A stretch of 64,000 nucleotides of DNA, taken from the IMG/VR virus record IMGVR_UViG_3300045988_087374; one strand, written 5' to 3'. This document shows positions 39,675 to 56,694 of this stretch, piece after piece. Source of the DNA: a virus. Both the position numbers and the translations under genes were made by a program. The first letter of the stretch is position 1. Each line of letters opens with the position of its first letter. The notes under the pieces are model-generated. The model was not told the origin of the DNA. It searched no databases and was given only the letters and a program-made list of their open reading frames with translations.

Positions 39675-40336
39675 AAAGTTAACAGCACTAGAATTGATGT
39701 TATAAATTACACTGTGCCAAATGCACAAAAGAGAATTTTGAAATAAGGCTAAGCCGTTTTCTTGTTCCATTTTTTGCGATTTTTTCCGCAGATTTCGGGA
39801 TCGCGCTGATCAATGCCAGTCTGAAACGTACCAGACTGCCGAACCGATGAAAATAGTAAAGCAGACCTGTGCAGGAAATCTCGAGAAATGCGGTAATTGA
39901 TTGACCGAAAACGGCTAGAATCAATTTGAATGTGCTAACCCTAGACTTAATCAAATACGCGTACAAAGTCCGTAAATGAGCCTAAAAGGAATTATAAACA
40001 ATGTAACCGCTACCAGTACGCATATACGCACTAATTCTTGTAAAACGTCAAATACAGCCTTTCAAGATCAGGAGCTGCCGCCAGCTGCACGAACTGGACA
40101 AACTGCTAGAAAGACCAGCGGAAACGATCAGAAGCAGATCACAAACCGGAAGTGTATATATAACCATGATACCGCTGTTAATGTCTTGCGTCAATCCTTA
40201 TTATTGATTACTTAAAAATTGCTAGAATTGATTTCAGAAGCCGATGCGGTAAAATGTACGTCTAATCCATCCAAAGCTGTTTTAACCCGTAAAACGTCAA
40301 CAAAACCAAAGACACGAGAAAAAGAGCAGCCAAAAG

Positions 40337-40720
40337 CTACTCTAAGTAATTGACGCGGGCTTTTCGCGGAAGATCTCGGAAGAACTCGAGAAAGCCGGAG
40401 TTGTCCAAGGTACTATACTGGCGGTCTGATGTCGGAATGATACGCCCGTCCTTAATCTCCATGCATGACAGCTGCAAGTGATTTGCCAGCTTGGTTGACC
40501 GATGCAGGGCGTACCGCATGACCGACACAGCTCCAGATTGACAGCGAACCGGTGGCAAGTCGTACCAGATCAGCGGCACGGATCCGGACGCAACCGCCCG
40601 GAAAACATCGGCGGCGTTCTGTCTGGCGGCATCTCTTATTTTTTTAACTTCGGAAAAATCGCCGCTTTTTATGGCCACGATAGTCTGCTTTGGTGTTGGT
40701 TTTATAATCTTATTTATCAT
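40337..40720 (-). CDS. hypothetical protein (GC-rich island)
   Basis: Start moved to MINKIIK (GGAGGG SD). Terminator hairpin spans the stop. Confidence 0.7.
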   Translation of the reverse strand: MINKIIKPTPKQTIVAIKSGDFSEVKKIRDAARQNAADVFRAVASGSVPLIWYDLPPVRCQSGAVSVMRYALHRSTKLANHLQLSCMEIKDGRIIPTSDRQYSTLDNSGFLEFFRDLPRKARVNYLE

Positions 40721-40722
40721 TT

Positions 40723-40935
40723 TTATAACCCTCCAAAAGTTTTGCTTTTCTTGTAGCATTTGTTCCAGAAGTCAACAATTTTTTCTGCTTCTTTTCTTGT
40801 ACTACAAATATTAGCAGCGGTTATTCCGGAAATTTGCAACGCAAATACAAGGTTATCAGATTCGGCAACCCGAAGAACAGAAGCGAAGTTTTTACCGTCA
40901 TTTTTCGTTGAAATTGCTATATAATGATATTTCAT
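40723..40935 (-). CDS. hypothetical protein
   Basis: Start moved to MKYHYIAIS (GGAGGG SD). Confidence 0.65.
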   Translation of the reverse strand: MKYHYIAISTKNDGKNFASVLRVAESDNLVFALQISGITAANICSTRKEAEKIVDFWNKCYKKSKTFGGL

Positions 40936-40949
40936 GTTTAAACCCTCCA

Positions 40950-40982
40950 ATTTTTAGAAAAACAGGCGGGGAAGACCCGCCC
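40950..40982 (-). terminator. rho-independent terminator
   Basis: Minus strand GGGCGGG-TCTTC-CCCGCC then TGTTTTTCT. Confidence 0.7.
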
Positions 40983-40995
40983 AGATATAGTGCAT

Positions 40996-41199
40996 TTAGT
41001 TCAGACAATCATTGATTTTCTTTTTCAGATGCGGAAACGCTTCACAAATTTCCTGCACGCTGTCTGCGTAATAGTCACCCACGGTCTTGCCAAAAATCTT
41101 GATATTTCCGGAATAAAAACCGGCGAGATCGTTAAACCAGATGTCAAGCCCGGTTGCCTGCTCCTTTTTGTCGCTGTACCACATATCAATTTTTATCAT
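40996..41199 (-). CDS. hypothetical protein
   Basis: 67-aa ORF with AGGAGGA SD. Confidence 0.65.
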   Translation of the reverse strand: MIKIDMWYSDKKEQATGLDIWFNDLAGFYSGNIKIFGKTVGDYYADSVQEICEAFPHLKKKINDCLN

Positions 41200-41221
41200 G
41201 TTTTCTTATCCTCCTTGAATT

Positions 41222-41254
41222 TTATTAAAAGACCGCCGGGGAAATGCTCCCCGG
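41222..41254 (-). terminator. rho-independent terminator
   Basis: CCGGGGA-5 nt-TCCCCGG with a T-run on the minus strand. Confidence 0.65.
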
Positions 41255-41270
41255 TACGCTTACCGGCCTG

Positions 41271-41435
41271 TTAAGCCACACTATCAATAATTTTTTCAAC
41301 TGCCTTTTCCCAGTCCGAGAAAGTGCAGTAGTTGTGGTCGTAATAATATTTTTCTTTTTCAAGTTCGTTTTTTCGCTCCGGAAACAGTTCCGCGAGAGAA
41401 TCGGTCATCCGGTGAACTCTTTCGTAATCTGCCAT
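41271..41435 (-). CDS. hypothetical 54-aa protein
   Basis: MADYERVHRMTDSLAELFPERKNELEKEKYYYDHNYCTFSDWEKAVEKIIDSVA. AAGGAGGG SD. Below the track cut-off. Confidence 0.55.
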   Translation of the reverse strand: MADYERVHRMTDSLAELFPERKNELEKEKYYYDHNYCTFSDWEKAVEKIIDSVA

Positions 41436-41437
41436 GT

Positions 41438-41839
41438 TTACGCCCTCCTTAGCATCTCAAGAATCTTCTTGCAGGCTCTGATATAATCATCGGTCAACAC
41501 CTCATTCTTGGAATGTTCGCCGCGCGTCCGGGATTCGAGCCAATCAACAACGCCGGTGCGGTTGTTTCTCAGTTCTTCCAAAAATTCATCATACGAAGAA
41601 AAATCCTCATTTTTGATAAGTTCCGGGACAAATCGAGCGAACCCGAATATTGCATTTAAACCGTTTGGCTCTCTGTAGATACAACCGCCGTAAAACTTGC
41701 TTTTGGTTCCCTCACAAGTTTTGTGAAGTGCTTTGCAACCATAACACATCGTGTTATATGTCAGGCTGTCGAGTGCCTGTTTTCTTTCTTTTCTTGCCTG
41801 CTCCTGTTCGGGAGTTGCGAAAATAGTATAATCTTTCAT
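41438..41839 (-). CDS. hypothetical Cys-containing protein
   Basis: 133-aa ORF. Confidence 0.7.
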   Translation of the reverse strand: MKDYTIFATPEQEQARKERKQALDSLTYNTMCYGCKALHKTCEGTKSKFYGGCIYREPNGLNAIFGFARFVPELIKNEDFSSYDEFLEELRNNRTGVVDWLESRTRGEHSKNEVLTDDYIRACKKILEMLRRA

Positions 41840-41865
41840 GTTTCTACCTCTCTTTTTTATTTTTT

Positions 41866-41912
41866 TGAAATCCGGCGGTTGCGTTGAGGCTACGGCTTGA
41901 CCGCCGCCGGAG
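41866..41912 (-). terminator. rho-independent terminator
   Basis: CCGGCGGT...ACCGCCGCCGG stem with a downstream T-run on the minus strand. Confidence 0.6.
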
Positions 41913-41915
41913 ATG

Positions 41916-42113
41916 TTAAACTTCTACGCTGATCAGGGACGGATCCAGATCTCCGCGTCTATATTTAACTGGGAGATACAAGCCCACGCCGTAAGGATCG
42001 GCCAGCAGCTCCCCGAAATGGGAGTAATGATAGTCAATTCCCATTTCTTTGAATTTCCCTATTGCAGTACTGTTAAGGGAACCTTTTTCCCACTTAATAT
42101 TTGCTATTTTCAT
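41916..42113 (-). CDS. hypothetical protein
   Basis: 65-aa ORF. Confidence 0.6.
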   Translation of the reverse strand: MKIANIKWEKGSLNSTAIGKFKEMGIDYHYSHFGELLADPYGVGLYLPVKYRRGDLDPSLISVEV

Positions 42114-48580: not shown

Positions 48581-48845
48581 AATATGCTTTTAGCATTTCC
48601 GATGTGGATTATCCCGTATCTCATCATAGAGCGGGTTAAACCAATAGAAAAACCTATTTGCATTTGCAGGCAATGCCCTTATGTAAAGCGGTATGCCAGC
48701 AAACGATCCATGCATCCGACATAGTGGGGAATTCAAACCGTTCAATTTTATAGCTTATTAAGATGCAAAAAAAATACCCCATATGATGTGTCACACACGA
48801 TTCCCGCCGTATTTTGAGATGGTGCTTTCTACGGCGGGAACTTAC

Positions 48846-48917
48846 AGGGCTATCACCAAAAGGTAAGGTAACGGGCTTTGATCCCGTCATGTGTGGGTTC
48901 GAATCCCACTAGCCCCG
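48846..48917 (+). tRNA. tRNA-Gln (anticodon UUG)
   Basis: Hand-folded: anticodon arm ACGGG-CTTTGAT-CCCGT, T arm GTGGG-TTCGAAT-CCCAC, acceptor AGGGCTA/TAGCCCC with an A1.C72 mismatch, 3-bp D stem. Confidence 0.75.
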
Positions 48918-48963
48918 CTTGCCAAGATTTTTGGCACTTATGTTTTCTTTTTTTCACCTCGTT

Positions 48964-49016
48964 ACCATCTAGCTCAACGGAGCTGATTAAAGGGACTTCA
49001 AATGTCCCGGATGGTT
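48964..49016 (+). ncRNA. tRNA-like element lacking an anticodon arm
   Basis: Acceptor ACCATCT/GGATGGT, hairpin GCTC-AACG-GAGC, 8-nt linker, T arm GGGAC-TTCAAAT-GTCCC. Confidence 0.5.
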
Positions 49017-49124
49017 TTCTCGGATCATAGCAGGAGGTGCTTATCGAGAGCCTTTGTTGCGACTGGTGGTTAAGAATCGCAACAGCAGACGCATTGTTGC
49101 TGACAGCCTACAATGTGCTGCTCA

Positions 49125-49198
49125 GGAAATTTAGTTCAGTTGGTCAGAACGTCCGGCTCATAACCGGAAAGTCCAGGGTTCGAGTCCCTGAATTTCCA
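49125..49198 (+). tRNA. tRNA-Met or Ile2 (anticodon CAU)
   Basis: Perfect cloverleaf: GGAAATT/AATTTCC acceptor, D arm GTTC-AGTTGGTCA-GAAC, TCCGG-CTCATAA-CCGGA, T arm CAGGG-TTCGAGT-CCCTG. Confidence 0.9.
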
Positions 49199-49559
49199 TC
49201 TCTTTCCTGAATGCCATTCGTACCGTAAAACGAATGGAAAAAACTTGCCGATTGAGCGTTTTGGCAATGTCTGTACGAGTGCGATACGGCGTAGCTTGTG
49301 CAAGGGATTGCTTTTCCGGTCGGCGTGCATCTCGGAGTAGTAATGTTTGGTGTAACGTGCACTTGGCATGGTGAGTTTTCAAGAGATGCAGTCTTCAAAA
49401 GACATACGTATACAGAATCCTAAACAACTCCGTGGAGCATACCACGGTTACCAAAAAGCCGTCAGGTTGGCAAAAATACGATAGTCCAAGTTATGAAAAA
49501 TTGCCTAGTGGAACGCATAACACGAAAAAATCATTGCTAACCCGGGGTGTCCGGGTTGA

Positions 49560-49630
49560 CGCAGGATGGAGTATAGGTAACTCGCGGGCCTCCTTAGCCC
49601 GAAAGGGTGGTTCAATTCCGCCTCCTGCAA
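49560..49630 (+). tRNA. tRNA-Arg (anticodon CCU)
   Basis: D arm GAGT-ATAGGTA-ACTC, CGGGC-CTCCTTA-GCCCG, T arm GGTGG-TTCAATT-CCGCC, acceptor with a C1.A72 mismatch. Confidence 0.8.
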
Positions 49631-49844
49631 TTTGCCAAGAGAAACAAGGTGTCCCAGCCCTTACAACTTGGGTGGGCGGTTTAATTCCGCAAGTCGGCAG
49701 TTCCGGCAGATACTCCTCTAGCAAAAGGTTATTGCTATCCTGTTTATCGGTTTTCGGTTCAAAAAGCAAGTTCTCAATTTTCTCTCTGTGGTGTGAAAAT
49801 CAACCCAAACACTTAAATAAAGTGTTTGACCGTTACAGGCGGTA

Positions 49845-49916
49845 CGGAATGTAGCTCAGTGGTAGAGCAATGGCTTTGTAAGCTATGTGCCGCAAGTTCG
49901 ATTCTTGCCTTTCCGA
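49845..49916 (+). tRNA. tRNA-Thr (anticodon UGU)
   Basis: D arm GCTC-AGTGGTA-GAGC, ATGGC-TTTGTAA-GCTAT, T arm GCAAG-TTCGATT-CTTGC. One U.U mismatch in the acceptor. Confidence 0.8.
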
Positions 49917-49917
49917 T

Positions 49918-50035
49918 TCCATATAGTGGCGGAATACGTAGACGCTATTGTGGTAGCATAGGTTTGAACCCACAACTTAGGTGACCTTAGCCGGCGGCAT
50001 GAGAGTAAAAGGGTGGAAATCCCCTCCTATATGGA
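49918..50035 (+). ncRNA. oversized tRNA-like element (class-II D arm, no canonical anticodon or T arm)
   Basis: 9-bp closing stem TCCATATAG/CTATATGGA, D-arm string GTGGCGGAATACGTAGACGC, internal 6-bp TTGTGG/CCACAA helix. Confidence 0.4.
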
Positions 50036-50066
50036 CGTTTGATGCATTGAGTGATAATGCTCTGAT

Positions 50067-50203
50067 TGAAAAGTGGCGGAACTATTGACGGTGATGAATC
50101 CGATACAATAGAAAGGCAGACGCAGAGGATAGTACATCGTAATGGGTGAGTATGTGTCTTTGGACATGGGATGTACATGGAAGTTCGAACCTTCCCTTTT
50201 CAG
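50067..50203 (+). ncRNA. oversized tRNA-like element with a D-loop insertion hairpin
   Basis: Acceptor TGAAAAG/CTTTTCA. GTGGCGGAAC-[CTATTG...CAATAG hairpin]-AAGGCAGACGC. 7-bp GTACATC/GATGTAC arm. Consensus T arm GGAAG-TTCGAAC-CTTCC. Confidence 0.45.
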
Positions 50204-50255
50204 CTCCTACGAATTGCCATCGTAGGAATAAATTACTCCTAAGGTATAGTTTGGT

Positions 50256-50308
50256 TTCCAGTACTCCACGTTGGGTGGCTAGTTACGGTTCAAGTCCGTG
50301 TACTGGAA
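50256..50308 (+). ncRNA. tRNA-like element lacking an anticodon arm
   Basis: 8-bp TTCCAGTA/TACTGGAA, D-like CCAC-GTTGG-GTGG, 5-nt linker, T arm TACGG-TTCAAGT-CCGTG, then TTTTT. Confidence 0.5.
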
Positions 50309-50330
50309 TTTTTGTTTAAGGAGGTGGCTT

Positions 50331-50501
50331 GTGGAAGAAAAAGATTATTGTTGTACATGCAAATGGTATGCACTGGAAGAAGGCGTTTGCTGTAATGGCG
50401 ACAGTGAACATTGCGCGGATTTTAGATTACTTGATGATAGCTGTGAATGTTGGGAGGGTGTTGAAGATGAGAAAACAGGAGATAATTTACATCGCAGTTG
50501 A
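50331..50501 (+). CDS. 57-aa Cys-rich protein
   Basis: GTG 6 nt after AAGGAGG. VEEKDYCCTCKWYALEEGVCCNGDSEHCADFRLLDDSCECWEG. Confidence 0.5.
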   Translation: MEEKDYCCTCKWYALEEGVCCNGDSEHCADFRLLDDSCECWEGVEDEKTGDNLHRS

Positions 50502-50838
50502 CAATAAAGATGCTAATTGGTTTTTAAATGAACTGTGCGAAGTTGGAAGAATAACAGATCCTTACCTGCGTGTCGATAGGAGAAAGAAAACGATTGAAAC
50601 CAGTAATTGCAAAGTAATAGCAGTTTCTCTTTCAGGTTGTTACACATTTGCTCCGATATCACCTATAGATTTTTACCTGTATAGTAGCAAGCCTATTACA
50701 ACACAATTAGAATTGATAAAAAATAGATACAACGAACTGAAAACAATAGAGATGCATTTGTCGACATTTGCAACAAAAATAGATATGAAAATATTAATTA
50801 ATATTTTGAATGGTGTAGAAGATGAAGATAATGGGTAA
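50467..50838 (+). CDS. hypothetical protein
   Basis: Start moved to MRKQEIIYIAV (GGGAGGG SD). The 5' part of track ORF 50329 is probably not translated. Confidence 0.6.
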   Translation: MRKQEIIYIAVDNKDANWFLNELCEVGRITDPYLRVDRRKKTIETSNCKVIAVSLSGCYTFAPISPIDFYLYSSKPITTQLELIKNRYNELKTIEMHLSTFATKIDMKILINILNGVEDEDNG

Positions 50839-50983
50839 AGAAATCAATGATGAATGTTCCAAGTGCGGGAATATCCTTGAATGTGAATTGTTTCGACAGG
50901 GGCACGGAATAAAACAGGAACGTGAGAATGTAGCAAAGATGATCGAGTGTCAGATGAAGCACAGGGAGGACAGGGAGAAATGA
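50831..50983 (+). CDS. 50-aa Cys-containing protein
   Basis: MGKEINDECSKCGNILECELF... Overlapping start and stop. Confidence 0.4.
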   Translation: MGKEINDECSKCGNILECELFRQGHGIKQERENVAKMIECQMKHREDREK

Positions 50984-51267
50984 AAGAAATTATGGAAAAT
51001 AATTTATCGTTGCGAGACAAATGTAAATGTCCATTTTGCGGAGGAACAGTAATTAATACAGGACTGGATTTCTTTGGTGGTGACGTAGGTGCCGCAGGCT
51101 TGAGAACTGATGCAGAATGGATTTGTACAAACTGCAAAACTGAATTTAATAGTGAGTTTTATCTCAGATCTGATAGGATTGAGACGATTTATAACGCAAA
51201 GGTCACATTACTTGATAAAAAAGATTGTCAACCTAACATTCTTGGAGAATTAGATAATGATAGATGA
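50980..51267 (+). CDS. zinc-ribbon protein
   Basis: Start at MKEIMENN (GGGAGGACAGGGAGAA upstream). CKCPFCGG...CTNCK. Confidence 0.6.
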   Translation: MKEIMENNLSLRDKCKCPFCGGTVINTGLDFFGGDVGAAGLRTDAEWICTNCKTEFNSEFYLRSDRIETIYNAKVTLLDKKDCQPNILGELDNDR

Positions 51268-51282
51268 ATATGGAGATATAAA

Positions 51283-51492
51283 ATGATTAAAATATTAAAA
51301 CCAGGAACAAAAAAAGAAGCAACTTGTGACAAGTGCGGTGCGTTATTGAGTTATGATGAAAATGAAGATGTGAAAGAGGAATGCATAGAAAAAAAGTTTG
51401 CTACAAATATGCCATCTGGATATGGAATTAAGCAGAAATACATCATATGCCCGCAGTGTAAGAATAAAATAATTACGTGGTCTACAAGATAG
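51283..51492 (+). CDS. zinc-ribbon protein
   Basis: CDKCGA...CPQCKN. Confidence 0.6.
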   Translation: MIKILKPGTKKEATCDKCGALLSYDENEDVKEECIEKKFATNMPSGYGIKQKYIICPQCKNKIITWSTR

Positions 51493-51504
51493 GAGCGAAT
51501 TGCC

Positions 51505-51744
51505 ATGATTAAAAAACTCTGTAATCTCTACATAAAACATAAGACAAAAAATCTCACGAGGATTCCGTTGTTCACAATGATGTTTGACTGGAAGAAGTTC
51601 CAAGAGGGTGGGAAGAAAGGAAGTTGCTTACTGTATGTAATTCATCCAGACATCGCAAACGATCTGGTTCTGCGTAAGAAGCTGTGCGACTGCGCGGACT
51701 ATATCCGTGACAATTACGATATGGAAAATTTTACAAAAATTTAG
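51505..51744 (+). CDS. hypothetical protein
   Basis: 79-aa ORF. Confidence 0.55.
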   Translation: MIKKLCNLYIKHKTKNLTRIPLFTMMFDWKKFQEGGKKGSCLLYVIHPDIANDLVLRKKLCDCADYIRDNYDMENFTKI

Positions 51745-51760
51745 CGTGAGGGAATTTCAG

Positions 51761-51961
51761 GTGAATGGTGTTGAAAACAAAAGAATTTTGGAATTGAAAA
51801 AGGAAAATAAAAGACTTGTAGCAAAAAACAAAGAACTCGAAGAAAAACTCGAAAAAACCAATTCGATTGTTATGGCATATACAAATGAGTTGCAAACCAG
51901 AGAAGTTATAAAAGGTGTTTGGGAGACACAATGCTTGCCCAATATTCATGGAGCAAGCTGA
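51761..51961 (+). CDS. coiled-coil protein
   Basis: GTG 7 nt after GAGGGA. ELKKENKRLVAKNKELEEKLEK. Confidence 0.5.
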   Translation: MNGVENKRILELKKENKRLVAKNKELEEKLEKTNSIVMAYTNELQTREVIKGVWETQCLPNIHGAS

Positions 51962-51962
51962 T

Positions 51963-52238
51963 ATGGGAGTGAAAGATGAATTGAATCGGTTCTTTATAGG
52001 AGAAAAAGAGATAGATACATCAGGAATACCGGAGTTCCCGGGAGATTTGATTAAGTATTCGCTGCAATCTGTCGGAAAAGAGCTTGAATTTAGGACGGAA
52101 TTTGAATTGCCGAAGGAAATTTTTTATTCATTGTTTTTCTCGAACCGGATAAGCCAAAATAATTTCCGTAAAATACATGGAATCCCCAAAAAGCGCAAGA
52201 TTGCAGGACGAAGAGGAGTGAGGAAGCATGAAAGATAA
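51963..52238 (+). CDS. hypothetical protein with basic C-terminal tail (paralogue pair, member 1)
   Basis: ...NNFRKIHGIPKKRKIAGRRGVRKHER. Confidence 0.55.
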   Translation: MGVKDELNRFFIGEKEIDTSGIPEFPGDLIKYSLQSVGKELEFRTEFELPKEIFYSLFFSNRISQNNFRKIHGIPKKRKIAGRRGVRKHER

Positions 52239-52518
52239 TGCATATTTATTTAGCAGCCATTGGATAGAAGCCGTTCAAAGCCTATATCTTTCTTCAGGAG
52301 TGTTTAAAACATGTATTACTTCATATAAAAACAATTATCTTAAAATGCACGGAAAACACAAAATAAGACAGGTCGCTGGAAGAAAGAGAAAAAGAAAATT
52401 TAGTAATCAATTCAGTAAAAATGCAAAGAATAAAATGAGAATTTATCTCAAACGGAAACATAAAGGTATTAAGCATAAAAAGAATAGGAGAAATAATGAG
52501 CATCAAATCAGCATTTGA
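52228..52518 (+). CDS. hypothetical protein with basic C-terminal tail (paralogue pair, member 2)
   Basis: ...NNYLKMHGKHKIRQVAGRKRKRKF... then a Lys/Arg-rich tail. Confidence 0.55.
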   Translation: MKDNAYLFSSHWIEAVQSLYLSSGVFKTCITSYKNNYLKMHGKHKIRQVAGRKRKRKFSNQFSKNAKNKMRIYLKRKHKGIKHKKNRRNNEHQISI

Positions 52519-52729
52519 ATCTGAGGGGATAGATTTCTCTCAGGTAATGAACCCACCGGAGCCGTGGGACGGACGGGCATTAATAAAGAACATCAATGGC
52601 AAGGACTACGCTTGCTGCCCTTTCTGTCAGAAGAAAGCACTTCTGATTAGTTCAGATACAAAAATTCAACATCTTAAATTGAAGTGCAAGGGTAGTAACT
52701 GCAAGAAAGAGTTCGAGGTGAATGTATGA
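52496..52729 (+). CDS. Mu Com-like zinc-finger protein
   Basis: CCPFCQKKALLISSDTKIQHLKLKCKGSNCKKEFEV. Confidence 0.55.
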   Translation: MSIKSAFESEGIDFSQVMNPPEPWDGRALIKNINGKDYACCPFCQKKALLISSDTKIQHLKLKCKGSNCKKEFEVNV

Positions 52730-53037
52730 AATATGGTGTAGTGAATTATCCCATTAAGATTATTGATGAAGAAATCATTAATGCACTGGCAGACATTGAA
52801 ATACATCATGAAGAAGATAAACGAATTGTTTTGGTAGAATGCGTCATGAATTATACAGAACTTCCAGAAGAATGCGTTCTTGAAATTGGATATCTTAAAA
52901 GAAAATTCAAACTCATGCATATCGACTCAGCTACAACAGAATTTGGAATCTATAAACTTAAATTTATGTTTGAGCGAGCAGAAGATATAAATAAAAAAGA
53001 TGAGTGGTGGGATTCACTTAGAAGCATTGTGAGGTGA
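52726..53037 (+). CDS. hypothetical protein
   Basis: 103-aa ORF, overlapping start. Confidence 0.6.
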   Translation: MKYGVVNYPIKIIDEEIINALADIEIHHEEDKRIVLVECVMNYTELPEECVLEIGYLKRKFKLMHIDSATTEFGIYKLKFMFERAEDINKKDEWWDSLRSIVR

Positions 53038-53041
53038 ATGT

Positions 53042-53623
53042 ATGAAAGAATTAATTAGACCTGTTCCAATTGAAATCGTTGATCTTGGAATAGAAACTCA
53101 CGCACAAATTGAGATTGAAGAAATTCTTCTTACATCATTCCCACCAATTCAAAAAACTATTTTAAAATTCAGCACTGAATGTACCGTATTTGATCTTAGA
53201 ACTGAATACTCGATAAAAATAAAAAATGATGATGCAGTGATAAAATGTTATAGGGGGAACACTTTAAACACTTTCATTCAGAAAGACGCAGGTGAAAGAA
53301 CTGTTGCTGAATGGCGCAAGGTTATATCGCGTTCAAAAAACACTCCGGACATTGTTAAAGCTATTGATTCTATAAAAGTGTCTGATGAAGATGTTATTAA
53401 ATCAGTTGCCAGTGATTCAGAAGAACTTCAAAAAACTAAGCCTATGGAACTGGACGAACTTTCGGAAGAAACCAAGTTTAGAATTTATAAATTAATTGTA
53501 AATGAAATTGGAAAGCATTTTTACAATTGCGAGATGCGTATGTCATATAAAGACTTTATACTTGTTGAGGATTGCATCAGAAAAGTTTTGCAAGGAGAAC
53601 AAGATGAACACAAAACGGATTAA
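53042..53623 (+). CDS. hypothetical protein
   Basis: 193-aa ORF. Confidence 0.65.
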   Translation: MKELIRPVPIEIVDLGIETHAQIEIEEILLTSFPPIQKTILKFSTECTVFDLRTEYSIKIKNDDAVIKCYRGNTLNTFIQKDAGERTVAEWRKVISRSKNTPDIVKAIDSIKVSDEDVIKSVASDSEELQKTKPMELDELSEETKFRIYKLIVNEIGKHFYNCEMRMSYKDFILVEDCIRKVLQGEQDEHKTD

Positions 53624-53780
53624 ATGTATTTTGACAGGTGGATGCAAGTTCAAAAGTTCGGATACAGAATCGAAATGTAATGATAAAGAAAAGACTTGCA
53701 CTATTACAGAAACTTGCTACAAATGTGGGAAGAAGTACACTGCTGTATTCACTTACAAACAGTTAGGAATTCCAGATTAG
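53604..53780 (+). CDS. 58-aa Cys-rich protein
   Basis: Start at MNTKRIKC (AAGGAGAACAAG SD). Confidence 0.45.
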   Translation: MNTKRIKCILTGGCKFKSSDTESKCNDKEKTCTITETCYKCGKKYTAVFTYKQLGIPD

Positions 53781-53792
53781 GAGAAATGCTGA

Positions 53793-54002
53793 ATGATAGA
53801 AATATTTGTAATTTTTGCTTTTGTGTTATTTATATTATTTTTAACTACATGGCAATGTGATGAAAAGCATGGCGTTTCGTATTGGACAGCAATGGTAATA
53901 TTCGGAATAATCTTAACCGCTATTGGAGTGGCACTTTCGTATTTTATATACGTAATAGGTTTGGCGTTAATTTCAATATTTTCAAGCGTGTTCATTGGAT
54001 AG
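53793..54002 (+). CDS. 69-aa three-TM membrane protein (holin-like topology)
   Basis: IFVIFAFVLFILFL..., AMVIFGIILTAIGVAL..., VIGLALISIFSSVFI. Not adjacent to the endolysin. Confidence 0.6.
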   Translation: MIEIFVIFAFVLFILFLTTWQCDEKHGVSYWTAMVIFGIILTAIGVALSYFIYVIGLALISIFSSVFIG

Positions 54003-54021
54003 TAAAGAATGGAGTATTTAT

Positions 54022-54621
54022 ATGAAAAAGATACCAACATTATTTGAGCGAGAATTCAAAGATCATAACGTTGTAAAGGTTCTTCCAAAAGTGCATCCGG
54101 GTATGGAATGGGTACTTGAAGGAGAGGGGATTGCAACAGTCAAATACGACGGCTCTTGCTGTGCAGTAATTGACGGAAAATTTTATAAACGATACGACTG
54201 CAAGAAGGGTAAAATACCACCAGAGGGATTTATTCCCTGTTGCGAACCAGATGCGATTACAGGTCATTGGCCGGGATGGTTAAAGGTTGATGAGAATAAT
54301 CCGTCTGACAAATGGTTTGTAGAAGCATATTATGTAACTTCAATGTGGACAAATCAAGGTCTTAAATTGCCGGATGGCACATATGAAGCTTACGGAAAAC
54401 ATTTTCATGGCAATCCGTATAATGATGATTATGATGCCTTGATAAAACATGGCAAAGAAATCGTTGAAGTCGAAAGGACATTTGAGGGGATCAAGAAATA
54501 TCTTTTCGAACACGAAATAGAGGGATTAGTTTTCTGGAAAGACGGAAGCCCACAATGTAAAATCAAGCGTTCAGATTTTGGATTTGAATGGCCAGTAAAG
54601 AAGGCAAGGGAGAGTTTATGA
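54022..54621 (+). CDS. minimal ATP-dependent RNA/DNA ligase-family nucleotidyltransferase
   Basis: Motif I TVKYDGS (KxDG), EGLVFWKDG (motif IV-like), CKIKRSDFG (motif V-like). About 200 aa. Confidence 0.7.
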   Translation: MKKIPTLFEREFKDHNVVKVLPKVHPGMEWVLEGEGIATVKYDGSCCAVIDGKFYKRYDCKKGKIPPEGFIPCCEPDAITGHWPGWLKVDENNPSDKWFVEAYYVTSMWTNQGLKLPDGTYEAYGKHFHGNPYNDDYDALIKHGKEIVEVERTFEGIKKYLFEHEIEGLVFWKDGSPQCKIKRSDFGFEWPVKKARESL

Positions 54622-54957: not shown

Positions 54958-56694
54958 ATGTCAAAAATTACAGAAGGTTCGCTTGAATGGTATCGGGCAA
55001 TTTTAAATCAAATCATTAATGGTGATATGACGGTCTATCAAAACCAAAAAGATTGCTTTGATCTGCTGTTAAATATGAATATTGACCTTCCTTTCAAGGA
55101 TAATCCAGATGCACAGAACATGGCAATGAAAGTCAGTCGGTACGCTCATAATAAAGCTGCGAAAAAGGCAGCAGTTACAGGAAGTGGTTCATTTGACGAT
55201 TTGTACTGGCAGTATTTATTGATGGAAGCACAGAACTATCAGGTTGACAGCGGACTCCTTTACCTTGAAAAGAACCGAATCCCGAAAGAACGATTCTACG
55301 AACCACGAAGAAATGTGTTCTTACAGCATAACATCATAGGTTCACTGCAAGACCTGATGGATGACAAATTAGATATATTTGCATTAAGCGTACCTCCAGG
55401 TTGTGGTAAGAGTACTCTGGAAGATTTCTTTTTATCATTGGTAGGTGGATGGTTCCCGAATGACTTTAACCTGTCTTCGGCACACAGTAGTATTCTGACA
55501 CGTTCCCTTTATGATGGTGTTCTGGAAATTATCAATGATCCCGTAGAATACACGTGGCATGAGATATTCCATAACGTAGAAATTCAAGGAACAAATGCAA
55601 AGGAAACTACAGTCAATCTCGAAAGAAACGGACGATTTAAGACATGGACATTTCGCTCTATTGATGGTTCTTTGACTGGTGCCACTAGATGCAATAGATT
55701 CCTTACTGCCGATGACCTTGTGTCTGGTATTGAAGAAGCTTTGAACAAGAACCGACTTGATACCTTATGGACAAAAGTGGTAAATGACTTGCGTTCCCGT
55801 AGACTTGAGGGATGCAAAGAGTTTTATATTGCCACTAGATGGTCAGTACATGATCCTATCGGAAAGCTGCAACAACTATATGCCGGAAACCCACGGGCAA
55901 GGTTTATTGCAGTGCCGGCTCTTGACGAGAACGGCAAAAGTAATTTTCTGTTTACGGTAAATGGATTCTCTGAGAAATATTTCAATGATGCTAAGGAATC
56001 CATGGATGAAATTTCTTATAACTGCCTTTATCAGCAGCAACCAGTAGAACGTGAAGGATTACTTTTACCACCAGATAAACTTAAAAGGTTCTTCTTTAGT
56101 AAAGACGATGTGCCGGATGGATGCACTGACGAATATGCCATTCTTCCAAAAGAAGAAGCAGATGCGATATGGGCAGTATGCGATACGAAGGATAAAGGAA
56201 CGGACTTCGAGTCTTTACCCATTGCATATCAATATGGAGATAAATTTTTCTTTCCCGACGTGGTATTCGATGATACCACAGACTATGATATTTTGGATAA
56301 AAAGACAGCAGATATTTTGATAAGGCATAATCCGCACAAGATTCGCTTTGAATCAAATAATGTGGGAAATCGTGTCGCTCATAATATTCAAAATATGATT
56401 AAAGGAAAATGTAGGGCAGATATTGAGACGAAGCCGACATCCGCAAATAAAGAAACAAAAATTCTTGTAAATTCTGACTATATAGCAAAACACTTTTATT
56501 TTTTACACCCAAGTCAATACAAAGCCAAGTCTGATTACGGACTATTTATGGCAAATGTAACCACATATACTACCAGAGCGAAAGTACCGCATGATGATGG
56601 CATCGACAGTTTAGCTATGATGGCTGAGTATGTGCAAAATCCGCTTGGTGGAAAAGCAACAGCAACGCATAATCCATTTTGGGGAAGGAGGTAA
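54958..56694 (+). CDS. terL: terminase large subunit
   Basis: 578 aa. Walker A LSVPPGCGKST. Position upstream of the portal. Confidence 0.85.
   Translation: MSKITEGSLEWYRAILNQIINGDMTVYQNQKDCFDLLLNMNIDLPFKDNPDAQNMAMKVSRYAHNKAAKKAAVTGSGSFDDLYWQYLLMEAQNYQVDSGLLYLEKNRIPKERFYEPRRNVFLQHNIIGSLQDLMDDKLDIFALSVPPGCGKSTLEDFFLSLVGGWFPNDFNLSSAHSSILTRSLYDGVLEIINDPVEYTWHEIFHNVEIQGTNAKETTVNLERNGRFKTWTFRSIDGSLTGATRCNRFLTADDLVSGIEEALNKNRLDTLWTKVVNDLRSRRLEGCKEFYIATRWSVHDPIGKLQQLYAGNPRARFIAVPALDENGKSNFLFTVNGFSEKYFNDAKESMDEISYNCLYQQQPVEREGLLLPPDKLKRFFFSKDDVPDGCTDEYAILPKEEADAIWAVCDTKDKGTDFESLPIAYQYGDKFFFPDVVFDDTTDYDILDKKTADILIRHNPHKIRFESNNVGNRVAHNIQNMIKGKCRADIETKPTSANKETKILVNSDYIAKHFYFLHPSQYKAKSDYGLFMANVTTYTTRAKVPHDDGIDSLAMMAEYVQNPLGGKATATHNPFWGRR

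What the first reader, a model, noticed from the sequence alone, without database searches (positions are those of the whole stretch)
48722..50330. tRNA cluster interleaved with four tRNA-shaped RNAs that lack anticodon arms
No credible ORF exists across this 1.6 kb. Four canonical tRNAs fold by hand (Gln-UUG, Met/Ile2-CAU, Arg-CCU, Thr-UGU). Three of them carry an acceptor-stem mismatch, including A1.C72 and C1.A72. Between them lie four elements with tRNA acceptor/T-arm geometry but no anticodon arm. Two are ~52-nt minimal versions (48964-49016 and 50256-50308). Each has a 7-8-bp acceptor stem, a 4-bp D-like hairpin, a 5-8-nt linker and a T arm with a consensus loop (TTCAAAT, TTCAAGT). Two are oversized versions (49918-50035 and 50067-50203). 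Both open with the class-II tRNA-Leu-like string GTGGCGGAA and close with perfect 7-9-bp acceptor stems. The second of these has a consensus T arm (GGAAG-TTCGAAC-CTTCC), a 30-nt hairpin inserted into the D loop before GGCAGACGC, and a 7-bp GTACATC/GATGTAC arm in place of the anticodon and variable arms. Perfect closing stems and intact T loops argue against simple tRNA decay. Possible roles are RNase P/Z processing punctuation, decoys for host anticodon nucleases or tRNA-binding enzymes, or a new phage tRNA-like ncRNA class.
Basis: seen in the sequence. Interest (0 to 1): 0.7.

Follow-up and report, generated by a model that had tools for sequence, protein, structure and literature searches.

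The report
Armless tRNA mimics punctuating a phage tRNA array
A gut-phage tRNA cluster holds four normal tRNAs plus four tRNA-shaped RNAs with no anticodon arm; two of these are small, conserved in over 250 related phage contigs, and most likely mark where host tRNA-processing enzymes cut and where the array ends.

Summary
ARAGORN and Rfam find exactly four tRNAs (Gln-UUG, Met-CAU, Arg-CCU, Thr-UGU). Neither calls the four extra elements, even at E<=10.

The two mini elements are real, strand-specific RNA structures.
- A is at 48964-49016 and D at 50256-50308.
- Each keeps the 12-bp acceptor/T minihelix of a tRNA (7/5 in A, 8/4 in D), plus a D-like hairpin and no anticodon arm.
- They sit at fixed positions in more than 250 related IMG/VR phage contigs.
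- All helices are 96-98% paired. Compensatory changes occur in all three helices of D and in two of three in A.
- D's loops (GUUGG, UUCAAGU) and a 3' U-run never change. D ends 20-26 nt before the next start codon whatever gene follows.

The two large elements form a lineage-restricted cassette.
- B is at 49918-50035 and C at 50067-50203.
- They share a 5' string that resembles a tRNA-Leu D arm. Too little variation exists to test their folds.
- Their closest precedent is T4 species 1 RNA (rnaC).

Best reading (about 0.45): these are cis-acting punctuation for RNase P and RNase Z in a non-coding RNA operon, and D also acts as terminator and mRNA 5' boundary. A trans-acting mimic or decoy role is not excluded. 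I also found a covarying RNA of about 360 nt (49199-49559), absent from Rfam, in the same array.

The parts
48846..48918 (+). tRNA-Gln (UUG), with an A1.C72 mismatch and no encoded CCA. It is the first gene of the array.
   Evidence: ARAGORN; Rfam 58.4 bits. It is the first element of the array in all related loci.
48920..48951 (+). Hairpin UGCCAA-GAUUU-UUGGCA followed by a U-rich run. It is terminator-like and lies directly after tRNA-Gln.
   Evidence: Terminator scan. Hairpins of different sequence, each with a U-run, sit at the same place in L002, L228, L184 and L295.
48964..49016 (+). Mini tRNA-like element A. It is a three-way junction of a 7-bp acceptor, a 5-bp hairpin with loop AACG, a 7-nt linker and a 5-bp T stem with loop UUCAAAU. 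The acceptor plus T stem make a 7/5 = 12-bp minihelix. The discriminator is U, and there is no anticodon arm and no CCA.
   Evidence: Minimum-free-energy fold, z = -3.8. 21 distinct variants are 98.3% paired; 5 of 17 pairs change on both sides; slid controls reach at most 58%. Present in more than 120 IMG/VR contigs. Deleted in at least 3 of 70 arrays.
49051..49124 (+). Conserved structured spacer between A and tRNA-Met. It has the hairpin CCUUUGUUGCGAC...UCGCAACAG and a second, variable hairpin that ends at the tRNA-Met 5' end.
   Evidence: Found in 215 loci with 58 distinct sequences. Stem pairs 46:64 and 47:63 covary.
49125..49198 (+). tRNA-Met/Ile2 (CAU)
   Evidence: ARAGORN; Rfam 74.9 bits.
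49199..49559 (+). Conserved structured non-coding RNA candidate, 286-394 nt in relatives. It is flanked by tRNA-Met and the next tRNA and is not in Rfam.
   Evidence: 192 loci, 113 distinct sequences. At least 5 helices show compensatory changes. The only Rfam match is a chance-level THF hit (17.3 bits, E = 3.1).
49560..49630 (+). tRNA-Arg (CCU), with a C1.A72 mismatch.
   Evidence: ARAGORN; Rfam 46.9 bits.
49790..49844 (+). Leader motif GUGAAAAUCAAC, a hairpin, then GACCGUUACAGGCGGUA, directly before tRNA-Thr.
   Evidence: It recurs before tRNA-Thr, 'Cys(aca)' and Ile(tat), and before the 113-120-nt tRNA-like elements of relatives. The hairpin sequence varies.
49845..49916 (+). tRNA-Thr (UGU), with a U6.U67 mismatch.
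   Evidence: ARAGORN; Rfam 66.5 bits.
49918..50035 (+). Oversized tRNA-like element B (118 nt). It has a 9-bp closing stem, a tRNA-Leu-like D arm (GUGGCGGAAUACGUAGACGC), a 6-bp arm with a 16-nt loop at the anticodon position, and an irregular T arm.
   Evidence: Sequence. 17 copies with 6 variants; one compensatory A-U to G-C change and one wobble change in the closing stem. The fold is ambiguous. No Rfam hit.
50067..50203 (+). Oversized tRNA-like element C (137 nt). It has a 7-bp acceptor, a tRNA-Leu-like D arm split by a 30-nt hairpin, a long composite arm in place of the anticodon and variable arms, and a consensus T arm (7/5).
   Evidence: The consensus fold is a four-way junction. 10 variants are 99.4% paired, but only one pair is compensatory. 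19 copies. Passes the strict scan.
50206..50226 (+). Hairpin with a 7-bp stem and the 7-nt loop AUUGCCA, after the last tRNA or tRNA-like element of the array.
   Evidence: The stems covary among relatives (CCUACGA, CCAGUGA, CUGGCAA, CCAAUGA, CCGGUAA). The loop keeps N-N-UGC-N-A.
50256..50308 (+). Mini tRNA-like element D. It has an 8-bp acceptor (plus a U50256-A50308 pair in this subtype), a 4-bp hairpin with loop GUUGG, a 6-nt linker and a 4-bp T stem with loop UUCAAGU. The acceptor plus T stem make an 8/4 = 12-bp minihelix. It has no anticodon arm.
   Evidence: Minimum-free-energy fold, z = -3.0. 25 variants are 96% paired; 7 of 17 pairs change on both sides; slid controls reach at most 56%. 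A third subtype changes all three helices again with the same loops. It ends every one of 70 arrays sampled through the terminase gene. Single copy in the window, 81.9 bits.
50309..50333 (+). U-run (50309-50313), Shine-Dalgarno sequence AAGGAGG (50318-50324) and GTG start (50331) of a small Cys-rich ORF.
   Evidence: A run of four or more U follows D in all subtypes, although the downstream sequence differs. The distance from D to the start codon is 20-26 nt in 93 of 102 contexts, with at least 5 unrelated downstream genes.

Best explanation
The region is a non-coding RNA operon of an uncultured clade of human-gut phages with genomes of about 75-80 kb. It holds four working tRNAs, structured spacer RNAs, and tRNA-derived elements that have lost the anticodon arm.

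Shown:
- A and D are selected RNA structures on the + strand.
- Both keep the 12-bp acceptor/T-stem stack. In established tRNA biochemistry, RNase P, RNase Z and the CCA-adding enzyme use this stack as a ruler.
- D also keeps a GG-containing D-like loop and a consensus T loop, the two partners of the tRNA elbow.

Inferred:
- Host RNase P cuts at their 5' ends and RNase Z cuts after the discriminator. No tRNA in the array encodes CCA, which is the class of precursor that RNase Z handles.
- A and D therefore act as cheap, non-decoding punctuation. They cut the long transcript into tRNAs, discrete structured spacer RNAs and the downstream mRNA.
- D is the boundary of the array. Its acceptor stem plus the invariant U-run forms a partial terminator or attenuator. 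Cleavage at D leaves the next gene with a short U/A-rich leader about 23 nt before its start codon.
- B and C form an accessory cassette, apparently derived from tRNA-Leu, in which other hairpins replace the anticodon arm. They are probably released as stable small RNAs like T4 species 1 RNA. Their function is unknown.
For: Structure and selection:
- A: 98.3% of cells paired and 5 compensatory pairs. Position 1:72 occurs as C-G, U-A, G-C, A-U and G.U.
- D: 96% paired and 7 compensatory pairs spread over all three helices. Three subtypes plus a UCGC/GCGA variant share invariant loops.
- The invariant U.G pair at 7:66 in A, and other G.U pairs, fit only the + strand RNA.

Ruler length: 7/5 in A, 8/4 in D and 7/5 in C.

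Fixed positions:
- A always lies between tRNA-Gln and tRNA-Met. D is always the last element. D was present in 70 of 70 arrays sampled through the terminase gene.
- The U-run follows every D variant.
- D lies 20-26 nt from the start codon in 93 of 102 contexts, with unrelated downstream genes.

The segments that the elements flank are themselves conserved, covarying RNAs.

A more distant relative (terminase 79% identical) has at D's place a plain hairpin. Its stem matches the acceptor of the third D subtype, and it keeps a U/A-rich tail and the same spacing to the start codon. This points to a boundary function of the stem.

Precedent: plant mitochondrial t-elements define mRNA ends through RNase P and RNase Z (PMC1920247).
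Against: - No RNA ends, cleavage or termination were measured. All processing steps are inferred.
- A simple minihelix would be enough for RNase P or RNase Z, so the strict conservation of D's two loops may reflect another partner.
- A is missing from at least 3 arrays whose flanking spacer is intact, so it is not needed to release that spacer.
- A three-way junction is an unusual terminator. The terminator scan did not call D.
- The downstream gene has no room for its own promoter, so termination at D cannot be complete.
- B has a poor T arm and is unlikely to be a good RNase P or RNase Z substrate.
Confidence: 0.45

Rival explanations
1. A and D (and perhaps C) are trans-acting tRNA mimics. 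After RNase P/Z processing and CCA addition, the RNAs of about 50 nt would persist and bind proteins that recognise the tRNA elbow or acceptor end. Candidates are host toxins that modify the 3' CCA end, tRNA-modifying enzymes, or the phage's own RNA-repair proteins. They would act as decoys, sponges or cofactors.
For: - D's GUUGG and UUCAAGU loops are invariant across three subtypes, which is more than minimal processing needs.
- The window encodes an RNA ligase (phrog_14301, E = 8e-55).
- In relatives, a DUF2828 plus vWA protein that PHROGs names 'RNA-binding protein' is encoded inside the array, next to oversized tRNA-like RNAs.
- Ro60/TROVE proteins work with tRNA-like partner RNAs (PMC4201824, PMC7824862).
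Against: - The discriminator base and the end of the acceptor stem vary freely. That argues against recognition by a specific enzyme.
- The elements have no anticodon loop, so they cannot be decoys for anticodon nucleases.
- D's tight coupling to the U-run and the next start codon is a cis property.
- The window has no DUF2828 gene.
Confidence: 0.28
2. D is simply the intrinsic terminator or stabilising hairpin at the end of the tRNA operon, and A is a tolerated relic. On this view the tRNA likeness is history: a terminator hairpin built from, or invaded by, a tRNA fragment. It would not be used by tRNA-processing enzymes.
For: - The stem plus U-run is invariant.
- The distant relative L295 has only a plain hairpin with the same stem sequence at that place.
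- A is lost in some genomes.
Against: - The inner D-like hairpin and T arm of D covary and keep invariant loops, so they are under selection themselves.
- The exact 12-bp stack is kept.
- A covaries in the acceptor stem and the D-like hairpin across more than 120 contigs.
Confidence: 0.15
3. The elements are non-functional, decaying tRNA pseudogenes left by the rapid turnover of cassettes in the array.
For: - The array is highly mosaic, with many aberrant tRNA-like genes in relatives.
- One relative (L031) carries a B/C recombinant that destroys the closing stem.
- B has a degenerate T loop.
- B and C occur only in a young, near-identical lineage.
Against: For A and D this is excluded by conservation at fixed positions and by compensatory changes. 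For C, 6 of 8 variable stem columns preserve pairing, which is weak evidence.
Confidence: 0.07

Closest known systems
Plant mitochondrial t-elements (tRNA-like processing signals; Forner et al. 2007, PMC1920247)
   Same: Both are non-decoding tRNA-like folds built around an acceptor stem and a T arm. D carries the GGTTCRANYCC motif. Both are embedded in long transcripts and lie next to mRNA ends. t-elements are cut by RNase P and RNase Z to define mRNA termini.
   Different: The system here is a phage, not an organelle. The elements sit inside a tRNA array, with a defined three-way junction and a conserved D-like hairpin. D also carries a U-run. Cleavage is not shown here.
Phage T4 species 1 and species 2 RNAs (rnaC 139 nt, rnaD 119 nt)
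   Same: Both are stable RNAs encoded at the far end of a phage tRNA cluster, with sizes close to C (137 nt) and B (118 nt). T4 rnaC has a consensus T arm (CCGGG-UUCGAAU-CCCGG) next to an acceptor-like closing stem, with long hairpins replacing the other arms. Their function is still unknown (PMC9697503).
   Different: blastn finds no sequence similarity. The rnaC closing stem has two U.U mismatches. T4 has no known counterpart of the 51-52-nt elements A and D.
Bacterial Y RNAs of the YrlA type (Rfam YrlA; Chen et al. 2014, PMC4201824)
   Same: Both are tRNA mimics that keep acceptor, D and T features, lack a decoding anticodon loop, and can be substrates of RNase P and the CCA-adding enzyme. 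Relatives of this phage encode a vWA RNA-binding protein next to oversized tRNA-like RNAs.
   Different: The topology is permuted. In YrlA the RNA ends lie in the Ro60-binding stem at the anticodon position, and the 'acceptor' is a closed hairpin. Here the ends are at the acceptor. There is no Rfam YrlA hit and no Ro60/TROVE or DUF2828 gene in the window.
tRNAs with non-canonical 8/4 or 9/3 acceptor/T configuration (PMC5389517)
   Same: D keeps a 12-bp acceptor/T stack in an 8/4 arrangement. That arrangement has been reported for unusual tRNAs of bacteria and their phages.
   Different: Those are decoding tRNAs with anticodon arms. D has none.
tRNA-like domain of tmRNA; mascRNA
   Same: Both are acceptor/T-arm mimics without a decoding anticodon loop, processed by tRNA enzymes.
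   Different: ARAGORN finds no tmRNA. The only mascRNA match is a 16-bit T-arm fragment inside tRNA-Met. There is no G3.U70 pair, no mRNA-like domain and no long non-coding RNA host.

Membership tests
tRNA (Rfam RF00005 / ARAGORN) | Full cloverleaf with a 5-bp anticodon stem and a 7-nt anticodon loop; scores above the model threshold. | tested here: not met
   A, B, C and D give no RF00005 match even at E<=10. ARAGORN finds no call at default settings or with introns allowed. A and D have a 5-7-nt linker where the anticodon arm should be.
tRNA (Rfam RF00005 / ARAGORN) | 12-bp coaxial stack of acceptor and T stem, with a 7-nt T loop. | tested here: met
   A is 7/5 with UUCAAAU, D is 8/4 with UUCAAGU, and C is 7/5 with UUCGAAC. 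B is irregular. In some relatives the T loop of A is 8 nt.
YrlA / bacterial Y RNA | RNA termini form the Ro60-binding stem at the anticodon position; encoded next to a Ro60 (TROVE) gene; match to the Rfam model. | tested here: not met
   The termini are at the acceptor stem. There is no Rfam YrlA match. The window proteins scanned give no TROVE hit, and tblastn finds no DUF2828 gene.
tmRNA | tRNA-like domain plus a tag-peptide reading frame. | tested here: not met
   ARAGORN, which also searches for tmRNA, finds none. Rfam finds none.
t-element-like RNase P/Z processing signal (functional class) | tRNA-like fold with an acceptor stem and a T arm carrying GGTTCRANYCC. | tested here: met
   D contains GGTTCAAGTCC. 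C has AGTTCGAACCT, a near match. A has a T arm without the GG.
t-element-like RNase P/Z processing signal (functional class) | RNA termini coincide with the ends of the element; the element is cut by RNase P and RNase Z. | not testable with these tools
   No transcript data or enzymology is available. The only support is positional: D lies 20-26 nt before the next start codon, and the elements flank structured spacers.
Intrinsic (Rho-independent) terminator | Stable stem immediately followed by a U-tract. | tested here: met
   The 8-9-bp closing stem of D is followed directly by a run of 4-9 U in every subtype. A has no conserved U-run.
Intrinsic (Rho-independent) terminator | Simple hairpin with a short (3-8-nt) loop. 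| tested here: not met
   The stem of D closes a 35-nt two-hairpin junction. The consensus scan does not call it.
T4 rnaC/rnaD-type stable RNAs of a tRNA cluster | Discrete stable RNA encoded in a phage tRNA cluster, tRNA-like at its ends. | tested here: inconclusive
   Location, size and the T arm/closing stem of C resemble T4 rnaC. RNA stability cannot be tested, and there is no sequence homology.

The most novel reading that the evidence does not exclude
A and D are a previously undescribed class of minimal phage tRNA mimics of 51-52 nt: a 12-bp minihelix plus an elbow, with no anticodon arm. On this reading they are matured and CCA-tailed like tRNAs and then act in trans. One possibility is titrating host factors or toxins that recognise the tRNA elbow or 3' end. 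Another is acting as cofactors of the phage RNA ligase or Ro-like RNA-repair proteins. They would belong to a multi-RNA operon that also encodes a new RNA of about 300 nt.
Probability: 0.22. Interest if true: 0.8.

Novelty: new variant of a known kind. Interest (0 to 1): 0.6.

Why it matters
Phage tRNA arrays are usually read as codon-usage or anti-defence tools, and everything between the tRNAs is ignored. Here the space between the tRNAs is full of selected RNA structure. Two minimal tRNA mimics keep exactly the dimensions that tRNA-processing enzymes measure. There is also a tRNA-Leu-like cassette resembling the unexplained T4 species 1 RNA, and a covarying RNA of about 300 nt that is absent from Rfam.

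If the mimics are punctuation, they would be a bacterial-virus counterpart of mitochondrial tRNA punctuation and plant t-elements. They would also explain how such arrays are linked to downstream late genes. If they act in trans, they would be a new kind of phage small RNA aimed at the host tRNA machinery.

In both cases they give clear, testable substrates: RNase P and RNase Z cleavage, CCA addition and termination. They also provide an alignment deep enough to build Rfam-style models.

Tried and rejected
- Rfam at E<=10 over 48600-50450 gave only the four tRNAs plus chance hits: THF riboswitch 17.3 bits (E = 3.1), nuoG, mascRNA fragment, plastid UTR models on the antisense strand of tRNAs. 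All were rejected.
- ARAGORN with introns found no new genes. With the threshold lowered to 80% it called B 'Ala(agc), 38-nt intron' and C 'Ile(gat), 57-nt intron', together with several obvious false positives. These were rejected as unreliable.
- YrlA/Y RNA reading: rejected on topology and absence of a model hit. The 486-aa window ORF that I suspected to be the DUF2828 homologue is the portal protein. tblastn finds no DUF2828 gene in the window.
- Prophage or host search: exact-pattern scans for D and for A in 185,579 GTDB genomes found nothing. The host remains unknown. The nearest cultured terminase is from Clostridium phage Maintenon, 42% identical.
- Cultured-phage homologues: blastn of the region against 50,697 phage records hit only the tRNAs and one uncultured faecal scaffold.
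- Are A and D paralogues? The D covariance model scores A at only 9.8 bits (E = 2.4) and finds no other copy in the window.
- Promoter search: sigma-70-like matches are at the shuffle level, and none is convincing between the tRNA-Gln terminator and A, or after D.
- Covariation for B and C: too little variation to decide.
- PDB sequence search with the relatives' DUF2828 protein gave nothing, so a Ro60-like fold remains untested.
Full report
**Observation**

The window looks like a tailed-phage genome with nearly all genes on the + strand. Downstream of the region lie a terminase large subunit (54958-56694), an SPP1-type portal, a MuF-like protein and a major capsid protein.

ARAGORN and Rfam at gathering score agree on four tRNAs: Gln-ttg 48846-48918, Met-cat 49125-49198, Arg-cct 49560-49630 and Thr-tgt 49845-49916. 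None of the four encodes CCA. No ORF in the interval is credible.

None of the four extra elements matches any of the 4227 Rfam families at E<=10. ARAGORN does not call them at default settings or with introns allowed.

**Anatomy of the four elements**

| Element | Coordinates | Closing stem | Other features |
|---|---|---|---|
| A | 48964-49016 | 7 bp, ACCAUCU/GGAUGGU | 5-bp hairpin with loop AACG; 7-nt linker; T arm GGGAC-UUCAAAU-GUCCC |
| D | 50256-50308 | 8 bp, UCCAGUAC/GUACUGGA (a ninth U-A pair in this subtype) | one U; 4-bp hairpin with loop GUUGG; 6-nt linker; T arm ACGG-UUCAAGU-CCGU; then UUUUU |
| C | 50067-50203 | 7 bp | consensus T arm; 30-nt hairpin inside a tRNA-Leu-like D loop; composite long arm where the anticodon and variable arms would be |
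| B | 49918-50035 | 9 bp | tRNA-Leu-like D arm; irregular T arm; ambiguous overall fold |

- A and D adopt these folds as their minimum-free-energy structures, with z = -3.8 and -3.0.
- The consensus fold of C is a four-way junction.
- The minimum-free-energy z-scores of B and C are not significant.
- A strict descriptor (7/7 acceptor, 5-bp T stem, NTCRANN loop) picks out A, C, D and tRNA-Met within this 1.6 kb. It finds only two other hits in 128 kb of both strands. Shuffles give 0-3 hits per 128 kb.

**Relatives**

One uncultured faecal phage scaffold in GenBank (MT838485) carries the same array. Pattern scans of IMG/VR gave 61 contigs with the D core, more than 120 with the A core, and more than 120 with a loop-only D pattern. 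Most of these contigs are 70-85 kb.

A sample chosen through the terminase gene, and so independent of the RNA elements, gave 79 loci at 87-97% protein identity.

The array architecture is constant at its ends and mosaic in the middle:

- It starts with tRNA-Gln, then A, then tRNA-Met.
- The middle is a variable set of tRNAs (Tyr, Met, Arg, Ser, Thr, Ile, Trp and others with odd anticodons) and tRNA-like cassettes.
- It ends with D, followed by a ribosome-binding site and the next gene.

D or one of its subtypes closes all 70 arrays in the terminase sample. A is present in nearly all arrays but is cleanly deleted in at least three. No copy of A or D was found in 185,579 bacterial and archaeal genomes, so the host is unknown and these phages were not found as prophages in that collection.

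**Covariation**

For D, 25 distinct sequences are 96% paired and 7 of 17 pairs change on both sides, spread over all three helices. Sliding the 3' partners drops pairing to 56% or less.

A third D subtype (UCCGGUGG..UCAC-GUUGG-GUGA..GUGG-UUCAAGU-CCAC..CCACCGGA) and a UCGC/GCGA variant change the helices again. The loops GUUGG and UUCAAGU, and the U-run, never change.

For A, 21 distinct sequences are 98.3% paired with 5 compensatory pairs. Position 1:72 occurs as C-G, U-A, G-C, A-U and G.U.

Invariant G.U pairs fix the strand as +.

Both elements keep a 12-bp acceptor/T stack: 7/5 in A and 8/4 in D. From established knowledge, RNase P, RNase Z and the CCA-adding enzyme measure this length. D also keeps the two loop motifs that form the tRNA elbow. 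The small loop and T loop of A are less constrained (AACG or AUCA; UUCAAAU, GUCAAAA or an 8-nt loop).

The D covariance model finds a single copy in the window (81.9 bits) and scores A at only 9.8 bits. The two elements are not close paralogues.

**B and C**

B and C occur together as a cassette in 17-19 of the loci held, at 95-100% identity. They share the string AGUGGCGGAA. One relative (L031) carries a recombinant between the two copies of this string that destroys the closing stem.

From my own knowledge of bacterial tRNA-Leu sequences, GUGGCGGAA..GGYAGACGC is the tRNA-Leu D arm. C has this arm with a hairpin inserted. I did not test this with a tool.

C shows one compensatory pair and four wobble-preserving changes against two disruptive ones. 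B shows one compensatory and one wobble change in its closing stem. This is compatible with the folds but does not decide the question.

**What surrounds the elements**

- The A to tRNA-Met spacer contains a hairpin conserved in 215 loci.
- The tRNA-Met to tRNA-Arg spacer (49199-49559) is a covarying RNA in 192 loci, with 113 distinct sequences and at least five helices carrying compensatory changes. It has no Rfam match.
- tRNA-Gln is followed by a hairpin and U-run in all relatives examined.
- After the last tRNA there is a hairpin with a 7-bp stem and 7-nt loop whose stem covaries.
- The 3' end of D lies 20-26 nt before the next start codon in 93 of 102 distinct contexts, across at least five unrelated downstream genes.
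- A more distant relative (MT835477, terminase 79% identical) has only two tRNAs and neither A nor D. At D's position it has a plain hairpin whose stem matches the acceptor of the third D subtype, followed by a U/A-rich tail and the same spacing to the start codon.

**Mechanism**

The best-supported reading is that A and D are cis-acting punctuation. They keep just the features that RNase P and RNase Z need. They sit at the borders of other RNA units, and none of the tRNAs carries CCA.

D additionally marks the end of the array. Its closing stem and U-run form a partial terminator or attenuator, and cleavage there would set the 5' end of the downstream mRNA. Because no promoter fits between D and the next gene, termination must be incomplete or overridden.

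All processing steps are inferred. I put this reading at about 0.45.

- The main rival (about 0.28) is a trans-acting mimic or decoy. It is favoured by the invariance of D's loops and by the RNA-repair context. The window encodes an RNA ligase. Relatives encode a DUF2828-vWA 'RNA-binding protein' inside the array, next to oversized tRNA-like RNAs that Rfam scores as tRNA with a 59-nt replacement of the anticodon arm.
- A pure-terminator reading (about 0.15) does not explain selection on the inner helices.
- Pseudogene decay is excluded for A and D, but remains possible for B.

**Comparison with known systems**

- The elements are not tRNAs, tmRNA or YrlA-type Y RNAs by the defining features I tested.
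- In function they most resemble plant mitochondrial t-elements (PMC1920247).
- C, and less clearly B, resemble T4 species 1 RNA. In T4, rnaC (139 nt) and rnaD (119 nt) lie at the far end of the tRNA cluster. T4 rnaC folds with a consensus T arm next to an imperfect acceptor-like stem. Its function is still described as unknown (PMC9697503).
- The 8/4 stack of D matches a configuration reported for unusual tRNAs of bacteria and phages (PMC5389517).
- I found no description of 51-52-nt armless tRNA mimics in phage tRNA arrays in the searchable literature. That is absence of evidence only.

**Verdict**

It is a new variant of a known kind (tRNA-like processing or stable RNAs), with good comparative support for A and D and weak support for B and C. 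Interest is moderate to high (0.6), because the elements are sharply defined, widespread in an abundant gut-phage clade and directly testable.

Noticed in passing
window 49199-49559: The spacer between tRNA-Met and tRNA-Arg is a conserved structured RNA candidate, 286-394 nt in 192 related loci with 113 distinct sequences. At least five helices show compensatory changes. Conserved blocks include GAUACGGCG, UCUCnGAGUU, GAGUUUUCAAGAG, AAACAACUCCGUGG and UAGUGGAAAGCAUAACACGAUAAAC..UUGCUAACCCGG..CCGGGUU. It has no Rfam match. It may be a new phage non-coding RNA released by the flanking tRNAs.
   Followed up: partly
window 49051-49124: The spacer between element A and tRNA-Met holds a hairpin that is highly conserved in sequence (CCUUUGUUGCGAC..UCGCAACAG) in 215 loci. 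A second, variable hairpin ends exactly at the tRNA-Met 5' end. The first hairpin is kept even where A is deleted.
   Followed up: partly
window 50206-50226: A hairpin with a 7-bp stem and a 7-nt loop follows the last tRNA or tRNA-like element in all arrays. The stem covaries in five versions, and the loop keeps a central UGC (AUUGCCA, AGUGCCA, ACUGCAA). Its dimensions resemble an anticodon stem-loop. Function unknown.
   Followed up: partly
window 49790-49844: A two-hairpin leader motif (GUGAAAAUCAAC, variable hairpin, GACCGUnACAGGCGGUA) lies directly before tRNA-Thr. In relatives it recurs before tRNA-Thr, 'Cys(aca)' and Ile(tat), and before the 113-120-nt tRNA-like element. It may be a cassette junction or a processing signal.
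   Followed up: no
window 48920-48951: A terminator-like hairpin and U-run lie directly after tRNA-Gln. Hairpins of different sequence sit at the same place in relatives, including the distant MT835477. This suggests tRNA-Gln ends an upstream transcription unit.
   Followed up: partly
window 49660-49700: A T-arm-like fragment (GGGCGG-UUUAAUU-CCGC) lies just after tRNA-Arg. It looks like a partial duplicate of the tRNA-Arg 3' half. ARAGORN calls it only at a lowered threshold.
   Followed up: no
window 53995-54621: A 208-aa protein with a KYDG nucleotidyl-transferase motif matches the phage RNA ligase family phrog_14301 (E = 8e-55), with a weak Pfam RLIG1 hit. It lies 3.7 kb downstream of the tRNA array and may be part of a tRNA-repair counter-defence.
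   Followed up: partly
L002 1570-1781 and 1933-3393 (MT838485); about 22 of the first 62 loci: In many relatives a DUF2828 + DUF7788/vWA protein (486 aa; PHROG 850, 'RNA-binding protein') is encoded inside the tRNA array. It is always preceded by a 113-120-nt tRNA-like RNA, which Rfam scores as tRNA at 47.9 bits with a 59-nt insert replacing the anticodon arm, and usually by a 90-nt tRNA-like RNA. This resembles a Ro60/Y-RNA-like protein-RNA pair. The gene is absent from this window.
   Followed up: partly
related loci, e.g. L077, L099, L133, L226 (tRNA 'SeC(tca)'); L002 3445-3513 ('Cys(aca)'); L006 (Ile(tat)): Related arrays carry tRNAs with unusual anticodons. One has a UCA anticodon, which would read UGA stops and could act as a suppressor. 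Thr-like bodies carry altered anticodon loops. This suggests fast anticodon-arm evolution and possibly stop-codon recoding in this clade.
   Followed up: no
L295 6002-6058 (MT835477, terminase 79% identical): This more distant relative has only tRNA-Gln and tRNA-Ile(tat). In place of D it has a plain hairpin (UUCCGGUGG, 16 nt, CCACUGGAA) with a U/A-rich tail about 22 nt before the next ATG. The stem matches the acceptor of one D subtype.
   Followed up: yes
window 50331-53800: Downstream of the array lies a run of very small ORFs rich in CxxC pairs, for example MEEKDYCCTCKWY..CCNGDSEHCADF. They look like zinc-ribbon mini-proteins. The first one after D is the commonest neighbour of D in relatives.
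   Followed up: no
window 40001-42000: A local reversal of GC and AT skew occurs in an otherwise uniformly positive-skew genome. A weak stem-only match to the D model lies at 41866-41919 (13 bits, not significant).
   Followed up: no
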